From Escherichia coli (GTDB lineage Bacteria; Pseudomonadota; Gammaproteobacteria; Enterobacterales; Enterobacteriaceae), in the NCBI RefSeq assembly GCF_024298765.1, contig NZ_CP101210.1: 64,000 nt of DNA; one strand, 5' to 3'. Positions 3,001 through 6,000 of the stretch are shown piece after piece (position 1 is the stretch's first letter; every line of letters begins with the position of its first letter). Position numbers: made by a program.

Positions 3001-6000
3001 CAATCATCAGAGATATTAACCAGGATTTTTATTGTTTTGTGATATCAGCAGTGCAGGTATACAGACATTAAAGTAATCAGGTTTATTATAACCACCTTTA
3101 CAAAGTTGTATGTGTTTATAATTTAAGGATTTTAATGCCAGTCGTTTTCTGCTGCTTAAATTGAGGTCGCATATTATACACAATAATATTCCTGGCATTA
3201 TTAAATTAATAAAAGAGGATTCTTATCACTGTATTTTTGCTCCGCACTACCGTTCTGGCTGGTGAAATAATAATACAGGAGAATAACAGAATGCTTAAAA
3301 GACGTGATGCTTTTTTAAAGAAAAGCGCGCTGGCAGTGAGTGTGGCCCTGCTGCTCTCATCTCAGGCTTTGGCTCATAAAACAATTACTGATTCAACGGC
3401 GGGTATTATCTGGATTGATAATGGCACTCAGTCACTTGAAAGTGCAAGTGTGATTGACAGAAATGGAAATGCTAACGATGGTGGTAGTGTTACTGGAAAA
3501 AACTTTGCTGTTGGTTCCGATGCAATAATTTGGGATGCGGATAAATCCATGGCAACAGGAAATAAGACAGCTGTTTTTAATGCAGACAACAGTGTCGCTC
3601 TGGGGTATGGCTCTCAGGTGAATGGAGAAAGCAATGTACTTTCTGTAGGGGCCGGTCCTTCAGGATATGGATTTTCAGTTGATGGTGCACCGGAAACCCG
3701 CCGGATTATAAATGTTTCAGATGGTGTTAAGGATAGTGATGCGGCCACAAAAGGACAGATGGACAACGCCATTGCAGGTGCTGTACGGGTGTCGGGGGAT
3801 GCCCTGCGCGGTGAGATAGGAGCTGTCTACCGTGATGCTGTTTCTCATACTGACAGTCAGGTCACAGCAGTACGTGATGAACTGAAGGCAGAGGGAGACA
3901 GTCTGCGCGGTGAGATAGGCGGTGTATACAGAGATGCCCGTGCTCATACTGACAGTCAGGTTACAGCAGTACGTGATGAACTCAGCAGGGATATTATTGC
4001 AGGCACATCGGCAGCGGTGGCGTATACGGATGCATCTTCTCTTGCTCTTCAGGATGAAATAAAAGAAAAAGCGGATGAAACAGTTCAGGTTTCCCGGGCT
4101 TATACAGATAAAAGTGTACGGGATGCCCGTAAAGAAGCGAAAAGCCAGGCAGAACATCTCAGCGATGTGCTTGTGAAGAACAGGGCGCAGACGGATGCAG
4201 CAATAGCCTCAAATACAGCAGCGATAAGGAATAACAGTCATCGTCTGGATTTGACGGAAGCCTGGCAGAAGATGGCGACAGAGAGAATGAATAATATGCA
4301 GGAGCAGATTAAAGAGAACCGGAAGGAGTTAAGGGAGAGTGCAGCCCAGAGCGCGGCACTGGCAGGTCTTTTCCAGCCATACAGTGTTGGAAAATTTAAC
4401 GCGACAGCAGCCGTTGGTGGTTACCGTGATGAGCAGGCCATTGCGGTGGGCGTGGGCTACCGTTTCACAGAGAATGTGGCAGGAAAAGTTGCAGTTGCTG
4501 CAGGTGGGTCATCCGCATCGTGGAATGCTGGTGTGAATTTTGAGTTCTGACAGGTCAGGATTTAGATATCTGTCCCGGGGGGAGTCCCCCGGGATATAAT
4601 GAGGTACAGAGATGCTGGATATAATCCTGGCGACGAGAGATATTTATTTTGAAAAAGCCCTGCGAGAGATATTTGGAACCGTAAGCAGTCGAATCAGATA
4701 TATAGAAGATGCCATATCAGACAGAAGAAGGGTGCAGTCAGGCAGGTCATTCAGATATTATTTTGTATTCTGTGATGATGAGTATACAGATATTGTTCGT
4801 ATTCTTTTTACCGGAGAGGCCTGCTGTATTCTGAATAAGTCGATGCTGAATCTGAGAGCGGCCGGAGGTGTGTTGACGCTGGAAGAGCGCAGAGCGGTAC
4901 TGAACCGGTATTACAGAGGTTTAAGTATTGCGGAGATTACAGAAGAGACGGGGCAGAATGACAAGACGGTATACGGTCATCTTCGTCGTGCACTGCAGCG
5001 GTCTGGATTCCGGAAGGGGCGTTTTATAAAGGGGAGAGAAGCGGCGGGGGATTCAGGTGTTGAATAATGTATCTTATATTGTGATATCGGTGCTGCTGCT
5101 GTTATTTTTTGTTGTATTTGTGACGAATGGTTAAGAATAAAACATGAGCTGGTGATTATCAGGACAGGTTGCTTGTATATGAAGATAACAAAGGTGGCAT
5201 TTATTTTTGCGCTGTCAGTGTGGAGTGTTGCTGTGATATGTCTTTTATTATTTGTACTGGTTGTTCTGGGATAGCCATAGTGAAATAAAAAGCTGTCTGA
5301 ATTAAATTATTTTGCACACATGTTTTAATTCTGCACTGAATTCAGAATGGGTAATCAGTGACCGTCCTGACGGTCACTTTAAAGAAAAGGCATTTACACA
5401 GAATTACTGACAGGCTCTGGCTGTCATTCGGCCGATGAACAGTTGCTTAAGACAGGATTATCATTCCCTTCCACCAGATTGGCTTTTTTACCTTTTGTGT
5501 ACAGTTTATATGAGTATCTTTTATTGATGGCTTCGTAATTGGCTCCGGAGGCCATTTTCATTAGCTGCATAGGTATCATCTCATCCATCTGATTAATCAC
5601 TGCATATGAGTTCCCAGCAGTGGTGTTGATATAGACCACCTCCATTGTCTTATTTCCATTACAGACATAAGCTGTTTTTGAGATTTCTTTTGTGGCAGCG
5701 GAGGATACCATACTGTTGCTAACAAGAATGAGTGCAAGGACGGGAGAAGAGTATTTTTTCATAATAACTCCTTCTGTAGGTTAAAAAAACAGGTGTTTGA
5801 TCAGAATTATATTAATAATTCATTCATCAGAAAAAAAGGTTTTTGTTATAGCAATAATAATGAGCACAATTGCTTGTGAAACTGGTGCCATTTTACGGTT
5901 GCTTAGGAGTGCTGAAACTGTGCCTGTTAGGGCACAGCTGGTGTGGTGGTCTCAGTACGGAACAATTTGAAAACCAGAACATCACTTAGGCTTGTGTCCA

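What the first reader, a model, noticed from the sequence alone, without database searches (positions are those of the whole stretch)
5424..5762. PliC/MliC-like periplasmic lysozyme-inhibitor homologue carried on the island
The signal peptide, conserved Cys pair and SGxGAxY/TKG-like motifs suggest a C-type lysozyme inhibitor. An island-borne extra copy would be a plausible host-defence evasion factor, but the assignment is from motif memory only.
Basis: inference. Interest (0 to 1): 0.4.

Follow-up and report, generated by a model that had tools for sequence, protein, structure and literature searches.

The report
Island-borne PliC lysozyme inhibitor gene
The gene is a real, intact copy of pliC, a small periplasmic protein that blocks animal c-type lysozyme; it sits on the selC genomic island of poultry-associated E. 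coli, and public databases already annotate it as such, so it is ordinary.

Summary
Window 5424..5762 (minus strand) is an intact 112-aa ORF. It has a Sec signal peptide and no lipobox. It has two cysteines (C34, C108), the loop motif S72-G-A-N-Y76 and the strand motif Y85-K-L-Y-T-K90-G91.

- **Family match:** It passes Pfam MliC (46 bits, cutoff 22) and the NCBIfam equivalog "c-type lysozyme inhibitor" (155.7 bits, cutoff 127).
- **Closest solved structure:** It is 72% identical to crystallised Salmonella PliC (3OE3). An AlphaFold model (pLDDT 87) is an eight-strand barrel that superposes on 3OE3 (TM 0.95, about 1 Å).
- **Location:** The window is about 99.99% identical to E. coli strain 104. 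The gene lies about 29 kb inside the tRNA-Sec (selC) island. Gene order there is identical to the pliC neighbourhood in APEC BEN2908, whose selC island is the published AGI-3.
- **Existing annotation:** RefSeq already names it "c-type lysozyme inhibitor" (WP_000760915.1). A 2012 paper already noted pliC homologues in a few E. coli genomes.
- **Distribution:** It is accessory (174 of 5426 complete genomes), whereas mliC is core (5425 of 5426). It is a distant paralogue of mliC, not a duplicate.
- **Host bias:** In a sample, 60% of carriers came from poultry against 10% of controls. This is not corrected for lineage.

Inhibitory activity of this allele is inferred, not tested. Verdict: already known, low interest.

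The parts
5424..5762 (-). pliC coding sequence (112 aa plus TGA stop), a periplasmic c-type lysozyme inhibitor
   Evidence: ORF list. Pfam MliC 46.4 bits. NCBIfam NF010363 155.7 bits. 72% identity to PDB 3OE3. RefSeq WP_000760915.1 'c-type lysozyme inhibitor' at the same position in strain 104.
5697..5762 (-). Codons 1-22: Sec-type signal peptide (MKKYSSPVLALILVSNSMVSSA|A), no lipobox
   Evidence: Sequence inspection and a lipobox regex gave no match. The mature A23 aligns to residue 1 of the 3OE3 chain. The AF2 model has low pLDDT for residues 1-25. No dedicated signal-peptide predictor was available.
5427..5696 (-). Codons 23-112: mature eight-strand beta-barrel domain (9.9 kDa, calculated pI 8.6)
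   Evidence: AF2 with an 88-sequence alignment gave pLDDT above 93 across the domain and strands at 26-34, 38-46, 52-58, 61-68, 75-78, 85-90, 93-98 and 102-109. Foldseek to 3OE3 gave TM 0.95 and rmsd about 1 Å. pI.
5535..5549 (-). Codons S72-G-A-N-Y76: the loop-4 SGxxY motif, whose Ser contacts the lysozyme catalytic Glu in homologous complexes
   Evidence: Read directly from the sequence. S72 is conserved in 86/88, G73 in 88/88 and Y76 in 85/88 homologues. The role of the motif is taken from PMC8334348 and PMC6033465.
5490..5510 (-). Codons Y85-K-L-Y-T-K90-G91: the YxxxTKG motif on strand 6, carrying the second lysozyme-contacting residue (Lys)
   Evidence: Read directly from the sequence. 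K90 is conserved in 85/88 and G91 in 84/88 homologues. Motif definition from PMC6033465 and PMC5507604.
5661..5663 (-). Codon C34 (strand 1), one half of the conserved disulfide pair
   Evidence: 88/88. The disulfide in family members is described in PMC2267010.
5439..5441 (-). Codon C108 (strand 8), the other half of the conserved disulfide pair
   Evidence: 85/88.
5768..5774 (-). Shine-Dalgarno sequence GAAGGAG, 5 nt upstream of the ATG
   Evidence: Read from the sequence.
5806..5811 (-). Candidate -10 hexamer TATAAT, 43 nt upstream of the ATG. It has a weak -35 and is unverified.
   Evidence: It lies in a block that is nearly invariant between this locus and a plasmid-borne pliC variant. 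The consensus promoter scan did not call it because the -35 is poor.
5763..5930 (-). About 170 bp of upstream DNA that travels with pliC and is conserved with the plasmid variant
   Evidence: Pairwise alignment, 85% identity overall, with long identical runs near the -10.
5357..5378 (.). Perfect 9-bp-stem hairpin (AGTGACCGTC CTG ACGGTCACT) between the convergent HTH gene and pliC. It is a possible terminator with no clear T-run on the pliC strand.
   Evidence: The fold z-score of the surrounding 101 nt is only -1.06, so this is weak evidence.
33678..34862 (-). Tyrosine recombinase (integrase) of the island that carries pliC
   Evidence: Mapped from the strain 104 annotation using the collinear alignment.
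35162..35256 (-). tRNA-Sec (selC), the island's insertion site and right-hand boundary
   Evidence: ARAGORN and RefSeq annotation.

Best explanation
The ORF encodes PliC, a periplasmic inhibitor of c-type (chicken-type) lysozyme from the MliC/PliC family. It is carried as cargo on the selC (tRNA-Sec) genomic island of avian/extraintestinal pathogenic E. coli.

Proposed mechanism:
1. The 112-aa precursor is exported by Sec and cleaved after A22.
2. The 90-residue mature protein folds into an eight-strand beta-barrel pinned by a C34-C108 disulfide.
3. When host lysozyme gets past a permeabilised outer membrane, the protein binds it one-to-one.
4. The strand4-strand5 loop (S72-G-A-N-Y76) enters the active-site cleft, so that Ser72 contacts the catalytic Glu. 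Lys90 of the YxxxTKG strand makes the second contact, the 'double key-lock'.
5. Peptidoglycan hydrolysis is blocked.

In these strains it adds a soluble periplasmic inhibitor to the core set described for E. coli (Ivy, MliC, PliG).

Shown here: family and subfamily membership, fold, conservation of the contact residues, island location, and accessory distribution.

Inferred from homologues: export and cleavage, disulfide formation, lysozyme binding and inhibition, and any fitness benefit in birds.
For: - **Family and subfamily:** Pfam MliC PF09864, E=3.9e-12, 46.4 bits against a cutoff of 22. NCBIfam equivalog NF010363 'c-type lysozyme inhibitor', 155.7 bits against a cutoff of 127.
- **Closest solved structure:** PDB 3OE3 (Salmonella PliC), E=7e-40, 72% identity over the mature chain.
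- **Other solved relatives:** A profile of 88 homologues hits these family structures: PliC-St, P. aeruginosa MliC with HEWL, Brucella PliC with human lysozyme, E. coli YdhA, Brucella PhiA and Neisseria ACP. PhiA did not inhibit lysozyme when tested.
- **Fold:** AF2 pLDDT 87 with eight strands. Foldseek top hit 3OE3, TM 0.95, rmsd 0.8-1.1 Å.
- **Contact residues:** S72, G73, Y76, K90, G91 and both Cys are conserved in at least 84 of 88 homologues.
- **Conservation gradient:** Identity to PliC-St is highest over the lysozyme-binding half. It is 28/32 for residues 61-92 against 22/38 for residues 23-60.
- **Experimental basis for the family:** Salmonella PliC was purified on lysozyme and its knockout loses inhibition (PMC2267010). 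Ser and Lys mutants of a family member lose activity (PMC6033465). The SGxxY Ser hydrogen-bonds the catalytic Glu35 (PMC8334348).
- **Gene integrity:** Intact ORF with a strong RBS. The allele is at least 99% identical in 145 genomes.
- **Island context:**
- **Literature fit:** Residual periplasmic inhibitory activity in an APEC ivy mutant was attributed by its authors to a possible pliC (PMC3458809).
Against: - No biochemical or genetic test of this E. coli allele was found in the searchable literature.
- The mature protein has a calculated pI of 8.6. Salmonella and Proteus PliCs are at 4.6-5.0. Lysozyme is itself strongly basic, so affinity could be lower or specificity different.
- No convincing sigma-70 promoter was called upstream, and the AT-rich surroundings could be silenced. 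Expression is therefore unproven.
- E. coli already has three inhibitors, so the added benefit may be small.
Confidence: 0.9

Rival explanations
1. It has the MliC/PliC fold but a different target. It could modulate or neutralise a bacterial lysozyme-like muramidase, such as a secretion-system autolysin as proposed for Brucella PhiA, or a rival bacterium's peptidoglycan-degrading effector, rather than host lysozyme.
For: Brucella PhiA has the same fold and is among the structural neighbours. PhiA was proposed to act on the autolysin SagA (PMC8334348). The unusual basic pI of this allele shows that its surface has diverged from Salmonella PliC.
Against: PhiA lacks the SGxxY motif and did not bind SagA or HEWL in vitro. 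This protein keeps both contact motifs and is 72% identical to a demonstrated lysozyme inhibitor. No muramidase or secretion-system gene is annotated next to it. Its neighbours are an adhesin, an HTH protein and sugar-uptake genes. No phage in the collection carries a homologue.
Confidence: 0.05
2. It is passive, unexpressed island cargo: a correctly folded homologue that is silent or makes no measurable contribution, carried along with the neighbouring sugar-utilisation and adhesin modules.
For: The gene is low in GC (40% against 50% for the window). It sits in a patchwork of IS remnants. No strong promoter was called. Truncated copies exist in a few genomes (H174 and H175). The poultry association could simply reflect lineage.
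Against: The ORF, its RBS and about 170 bp of upstream sequence are conserved between independent mobile contexts: chromosome island, PerC-linked plasmid and Rep3 plasmid-like contig. That argues for selection on the expressed gene. The allele is intact in 144 of 147 chromosomal carriers.
Confidence: 0.05

Closest known systems
Salmonella enterica PliC (SEN1802; crystal structure PDB 3OE3)
   Same: 72% identity over the mature chain. Same length. Sec signal peptide without a lipobox. Same Cys pair. Identical core KMASGANYEAI and YKLYTKGK segments. The predicted structure superposes at TM 0.95. Same NCBIfam equivalog.
   Different: In Salmonella the gene lies next to an Ail/Lom-family (PagC-like) outer-membrane protein gene and a cold-shock-domain gene, and the 2008 paper reports it in all sequenced Salmonella genomes. 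Here it is an accessory gene on the selC island, present in about 3% of E. coli. Calculated mature pI is 8.6 here against 4.76 there, with 25 substitutions mostly in the N-terminal half.
E. coli MliC (YdhA; PDB 2F09), the core outer-membrane lipoprotein inhibitor
   Same: Same Pfam family, same fold, same Cys pair, and SGA.Y / KG motifs.
   Different: Only about 26% identity, with a BLASTP match limited to 40 residues. MliC is annotated as a putative lipoprotein and has WSKG in place of YTKG. It is present in 5425 of 5426 genomes. The query scores 17 bits against a 261-bit cutoff on the second NCBIfam lysozyme-inhibitor equivalog, NF010364.
Pseudomonas aeruginosa MliC in complex with hen egg-white lysozyme (PDB 3F6Z) and Brucella PliC with human lysozyme (4ML7)
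   Same: These provide the mechanistic template. Ser of SGxxY and Lys of TKG insert into the lysozyme active site, and both residues are conserved here.
   Different: 23-27% identity. No complex was modelled here.
Plasmid-borne PliC variants in E. coli and the MliC-family gene on Klebsiella plasmids
   Same: Mobile-element-borne c-type lysozyme inhibitors. The E. coli plasmid variants are 79-88% identical and share the upstream region.
   Different: Different carriers: a large plasmid next to a PerC regulator, and a Rep3 plasmid-like contig. The Klebsiella plasmid gene is only about 41% identical.
Brucella PhiA (PDB 7DPY)
   Same: Eight-strand MliC/PliC fold, periplasmic, with a disulfide.
   Different: PhiA lacks SGxxY and TKG, is tetrameric, and does not inhibit lysozyme. 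The window protein has both motifs.

Membership tests
MliC/PliC family (Pfam PF09864, COG3895) | Significant profile match above the curated threshold | tested here: met
   PF09864, 46.4 bits against a cutoff of 22, E=3.9e-12, covering profile positions 1-66 of 67.
MliC/PliC family (Pfam PF09864, COG3895) | Eight-stranded antiparallel beta-barrel | tested here: met
   AF2 model, pLDDT 87, eight strands. The 14 best Foldseek matches, with E-values up to 0.03, are all MliC/PliC-fold proteins: PliC, MliC, PhiA and ACP.
MliC/PliC family (Pfam PF09864, COG3895) | Conserved Cys pair (strand 1 and strand 8) forming a disulfide | tested here: met
   C34 and C108 are present, and the columns are conserved in 88/88 and 85/88 homologues. 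Actual disulfide formation cannot be tested here.
MliC/PliC family (Pfam PF09864, COG3895) | Loop-4 motif SxSGAxY (core SGxxY) with the lysozyme-contacting Ser | tested here: met
   M-A-S72-G-A-N-Y76. The core SGxxY is intact. The first Ser is Met, as in Salmonella PliC. Motif definition.
MliC/PliC family (Pfam PF09864, COG3895) | Strand-6 motif YxxxTKG with the contacting Lys | tested here: met
   Y85-K-L-Y-T-K90-G91. K90 is conserved in 85/88 homologues.
MliC/PliC family (Pfam PF09864, COG3895) | Binds and inhibits c-type lysozyme | not testable with these tools
   Requires purified protein and a lysis assay. Demonstrated for the 72%-identical Salmonella protein (PMC2267010).
PliC subtype (periplasmic, soluble) as opposed to MliC (lipoprotein) | Sec signal peptide with a signal-peptidase-I site and no lipobox Cys | tested here: met
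   No lipobox match. VSSA|A fits the -3/-1 rule. The mature start aligns with the 3OE3 chain. This was done by inspection only, because no SignalP-type tool was available.
PliC subtype (periplasmic, soluble) as opposed to MliC (lipoprotein) | Passes the NCBIfam equivalog used to name PliC-type proteins (NF010363) and fails the second lysozyme-inhibitor equivalog (NF010364) | tested here: met
   NF010363 scores 155.7 bits against a cutoff of 127. NF010364 scores 17.2 bits against a cutoff of 261.
Ivy family (the other c-type lysozyme inhibitor of E. coli) | Match to an Ivy profile or fold | tested here: not met
   A Pfam scan at E up to 10 returned only MliC and a weak Nm-ACP hit. No Ivy structure appears among the PDB or Foldseek hits.
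tRNA-associated genomic island (selC island, as in APEC BEN2908 where it is named AGI-3) | Adjacent tRNA gene and integrase | tested here: met
   tRNA-Sec at 35162-35256. A tyrosine recombinase is about 300 bp from it.
tRNA-associated genomic island (selC island, as in APEC BEN2908 where it is named AGI-3) | Variable presence among strains, mobile-element debris and atypical composition | tested here: met
   pliC is in 174 of 5426 genomes. IS2, IS66, IS110, IS1 and IS3 remnants lie around it. The pliC region is 39-40% GC against 49.7% for the window.
tRNA-associated genomic island (selC island, as in APEC BEN2908 where it is named AGI-3) | Same gene order around pliC as in BEN2908 | tested here: met
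   The BEN2908 chromosome encodes the identical protein WP_000760915.1 in the same gene order. The original AGI-3 paper could not be read. So the AGI-3 name rests on citing papers and the AGI-3 boundaries were not checked.
tRNA-associated genomic island (selC island, as in APEC BEN2908 where it is named AGI-3) | Flanking direct repeats (att sites) | not tested
   The island's left end lies outside the window. In strain 104 it begins near yicL, about 55 kb upstream of the window's left end.

The most novel reading that the evidence does not exclude
The island allele may be a host-adaptation factor for life in birds. It would be a charge-shifted PliC (pI 8.6 instead of about 4.8) that explains the unexplained residual periplasmic lysozyme-inhibitory activity seen in an APEC ivy mutant. 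Its repeated capture by a chromosomal island and two kinds of plasmid would then reflect selection by chicken c-type lysozyme in egg white, mucosa and heterophils. Its specificity or affinity might differ measurably from Salmonella PliC.
Probability: 0.2. Interest if true: 0.35.

Novelty: already known. Interest (0 to 1): 0.15.

Why it matters
The finding has limited significance. It confirms that a small subset of E. coli, enriched among poultry isolates in the sample examined, carries a fourth lysozyme inhibitor acquired horizontally on the selC island. This inhibitor is a periplasmic PliC closest to the Salmonella protein.

It gives a concrete candidate for an observation left open in 2012: residual periplasmic anti-lysozyme activity in an APEC ivy mutant. 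It also gives a candidate for a 2026 GWAS hit that linked a "c-type lysozyme inhibitor" to chicken isolates.

The protein family, its mechanism and this gene's annotation are all already established. The value lies in tidy confirmation rather than discovery.

Tried and rejected
- **Single-sequence AlphaFold:** pLDDT was 39, so the model was unusable and was discarded. It was redone with an 88-sequence alignment.
- **Promoter and terminator scan of 5050-6300:** No sigma-70-like site was called just upstream of pliC. The only terminator-like hit (5540-5554, plus strand) lies inside the gene on the wrong strand and was ignored.
- **RNA fold of the region downstream of the stop codon:** A clean hairpin is present, but the z-score is -1.06 and there is no T-run. 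It is not claimed as a terminator.
- **AGI-3 description, PMC1347334:** The paper is not held. The island's published ORF names and boundaries therefore could not be matched.
- **tkt1 island paper:** It describes a different island, between metE and ysgA. It is not the split transketolase genes at the window's left end.
- **Phage collection:** No homologue was found, so a phage-lysis-related role has no support.
- **Ivy membership and MliC orthology:** Both were considered and rejected.
- **Pfam scan of the 41-aa ORF at 6082-6207:** I suspected an IS3 transposase remnant. There was no hit, so this is left open.
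Full report
**1. The observation**

Window 5424..5762 holds an intact 112-aa ORF on the minus strand, with ATG at 5762 and TGA at 5426-5424. 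No competing long ORF lies on the other strand. A GAAGGAG Shine-Dalgarno sequence sits 5 nt upstream, at 5768-5774.

The product begins with a typical Sec signal: MKK, a hydrophobic core, then VSSA|A. It has no lipobox. It contains exactly two cysteines, C34 and C108. It carries S72-G-A-N-Y76 and Y85-K-L-Y-T-K90-G91. These are the two motifs published for the family, SxSGAxY and YxxxTKG (PMC6033465; PMC5507604).

**2. What it is**

The sequence evidence is as follows:
- Pfam gives MliC (PF09864) at E=3.9e-12, 46.4 bits against a gathering cutoff of 22, covering the whole profile.
- The NCBIfam equivalog NF010363, "c-type lysozyme inhibitor", scores 155.7 bits against a cutoff of 127. The second lysozyme-inhibitor equivalog, NF010364, scores 17 bits against a cutoff of 261.
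- Against PDB sequences the best match is 3OE3 (Salmonella Typhimurium PliC), E=7e-40, with 64 of 89 mature residues identical (72%).
- A profile of 88 homologues hits these family structures: 3OE3, 3F6Z (P. aeruginosa MliC with hen lysozyme), 4MIR/4ML7 (Brucella PliC with human lysozyme), 2F09 (E. coli YdhA/MliC), Brucella PhiA and Neisseria ACP. PhiA did not inhibit lysozyme when tested.

The structural evidence is as follows:
- A single-sequence AlphaFold run was useless, with pLDDT 39.
- With the 88-sequence alignment the model has mean pLDDT 87, above 93 across the mature domain, and eight beta-strands.
- Foldseek puts 3OE3 first, at TM 0.95 on the target and rmsd 0.8-1.1 Å. PhiA, MliC-HEWL, Brucella PliC and ACP follow.
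- Across the 88 homologues the key columns are nearly invariant: C34 88/88, S72 86/88, G73 88/88, Y76 85/88, K90 85/88, G91 84/88 and C108 85/88.
- Identity to Salmonella PliC is highest over the lysozyme-binding half. It is 28/32 for residues 61-92, against 22/38 for residues 23-60.

**3. Where it sits**

The window is 99.99-100% identical and collinear with the E. coli strain 104 chromosome, a chicken isolate. The one exception is an extra IS66-family insertion at about 20543-23243. RefSeq annotates this exact ORF as WP_000760915.1, "c-type lysozyme inhibitor".

tRNA-Sec lies at 35162-35256, with a tyrosine recombinase beside it. Everything to the left of it, to the window's left end and beyond, is island DNA full of IS remnants. 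In strain 104 the island starts near yicL, about 55 kb upstream of the window's left end.

The local gene order is: split transketolase, YadA-like adhesin, sigma-70-region-4-like HTH gene, then pliC (convergent with the HTH gene), a nanE-like epimerase, a PTS IIC gene, MurR/RpiR and a phytase-like esterase. This order is identical in APEC BEN2908 (same protein) and in APEC O2-211 (a 99.1% allele). BEN2908 is the strain whose selC island was published as AGI-3 (cited). The original paper could not be read.

pliC and its flanks are 39-40% GC, against 49.7% for the window.

**4. Distribution**

- The gene occurs in 174 of 5426 complete E. coli genomes. Of these, 147 carry this chromosomal allele at 95% identity or more. 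About 28 records carry an 88% variant on large plasmids.
- The core mliC is in 5425 of 5426 genomes. It is only about 26% identical to this protein. The island gene is therefore an additional paralogue, not a duplicate.
- Homologues at 55-75% identity are found in Salmonella, Proteus, Morganella and a Pasteurellaceae bacterium. Variants at 79-88% occur in E. coli and Klebsiella.
- The variants sit in other mobile contexts. One is a plasmid copy next to a PerC regulator. Another is a Rep3 plasmid-like contig. About 40 PLSDB plasmids carry one.
- About 170 bp of upstream DNA, including a TATAAT at 5811-5806, is conserved between the island and plasmid copies.
- In Salmonella the gene lies beside an Ail/Lom-family (PagC-like) outer-membrane protein gene and a cold-shock-domain gene.
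- No phage record carries a homologue.

**5. Host bias**

In an evenly spaced sample of 60 carriers, 36 came from chicken, poultry or other birds. In a matching sample of 60 genomes drawn through the core mliC gene, 6 did. Fisher's exact test gives p=9e-9.

This result is not corrected for lineage or for repeated sampling of clones. It does agree with a 2026 GWAS that listed a "c-type lysozyme inhibitor", a "phytase family protein" and an "autotransporter" among chicken-associated genes (PMC12987596). Genes with those three product names are annotated on this island, so the GWAS hits may come from it. That identity was not checked.

**6. Mechanism**

By homology, the precursor is exported and cleaved after A22. 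The 9.9-kDa barrel is stabilised by the C34-C108 disulfide. The loop between strands 4 and 5 (residues 69-74) inserts into the lysozyme cleft, so that Ser72 contacts the catalytic Glu. Lys90 on strand 6 makes the second contact.

This scheme rests on work with homologues:
- the Salmonella PliC purification and knockout (PMC2267010);
- the structural descriptions of the complexes;
- the loss of inhibition in Ser/Lys double mutants.

None of this was measured for the E. coli allele.

One difference stands out. The calculated mature pI is 8.6, against 4.6-5.0 for most PliC-clade proteins. That could alter affinity for the basic lysozyme.

**7. Comparison with what is known, and novelty**

[quoted passage not shown] It is not Ivy. 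It is not a PhiA-like non-inhibitor, because PhiA lacks SGxxY.

Vanderkelen et al. [quoted passage not shown] They suggested it might explain residual periplasmic inhibitory activity in an APEC ivy mutant (PMC3458809). RefSeq names the gene correctly. The finding is therefore real, correctly interpreted and already known.

The open points are modest: the activity and specificity of this allele, its expression, and whether the poultry association is adaptive.

**8. Verdict**

- Observation: confirmed.
- Interpretation: supported.
- Novelty: already known.
- Interest: low (0.15).

Noticed in passing
window 5427-5696 (mature PliC): The calculated pI of the mature protein is 8.56. Salmonella, Proteus and Morganella PliCs are at 4.6-5.0. 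The net charge shift is about +5 relative to Salmonella PliC, which is odd for an inhibitor of a very basic enzyme.
   Followed up: partly
L006 7534-8339 (plasmid pEF7-18-51_1, NZ_CP063488.1): A PliC variant with 88% protein identity lies on large E. coli plasmids (records of about 112-175 kb), directly downstream of a PerC-family transcriptional activator. It shares about 170 bp of upstream sequence with the island copy. A 79% variant sits on a Rep3 plasmid-like contig (L009).
   Followed up: partly
E. coli genomes samples: 36 of 60 sampled pliC carriers are from chicken, poultry or other birds, against 6 of 60 control genomes (Fisher p=9e-9). This is not phylogeny-corrected. A 2026 GWAS lists genes with matching product names (lysozyme inhibitor, phytase-like, autotransporter) as chicken-associated.
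   Followed up: partly
window 3237-4550 (+): A YadA-like trimeric autotransporter adhesin, with the anchor domain at its C-terminus, lies immediately upstream. Its annotated length differs between strains (1260, 1266 and 1359 bp), which suggests a variable repeat stalk.
   Followed up: no
window 4612-5067 (+): A 151-aa protein has a sigma-70 region-4-like HTH only (Pfam Sigma70_r4_2, E=2e-7). It is convergent with pliC. It could regulate the adhesin or pliC, but its role is unknown.
   Followed up: partly
window 5152-5274 (+) and 5357-5378: An unannotated, very hydrophobic 40-aa ORF (MKITKVAFIFALSVWSVAVICLLLFVLVVLG...) is followed by a perfect 9-bp-stem hairpin in the spacer between the HTH gene and pliC.
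   Followed up: no
window about 20543-23243: An extra insertion of about 2.7 kb, relative to the otherwise identical strain 104. Part of it matches an IS66-family element at 94% identity.
   Followed up: partly
window about 39554-46497 (+): Outside the selC island, between yicI and yicH, there is an accessory cluster: a BglG-type antiterminator, PTS fructose IIA/IIB/IIC, two aldolases, a ROK kinase and a lyxose/mannose isomerase. It resembles the 'frz' operon reported for BEN2908.
   Followed up: no
window 17493-20273 and 28988-32485 (+): The island also carries a TonB-dependent receptor with a DUF4198 partner, and a 3.5-kb classical autotransporter next to the integrase end.
   Followed up: no
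plasmids collection: 702 plasmid records carry a more distant (<60% identical) MliC-family 'c-type lysozyme inhibitor'; the Klebsiella pneumoniae copies sampled are about 41% identical. 644 of the 743 matching records are Klebsiella. Mobile lysozyme inhibitors are therefore common cargo in Enterobacteriaceae.
   Followed up: no
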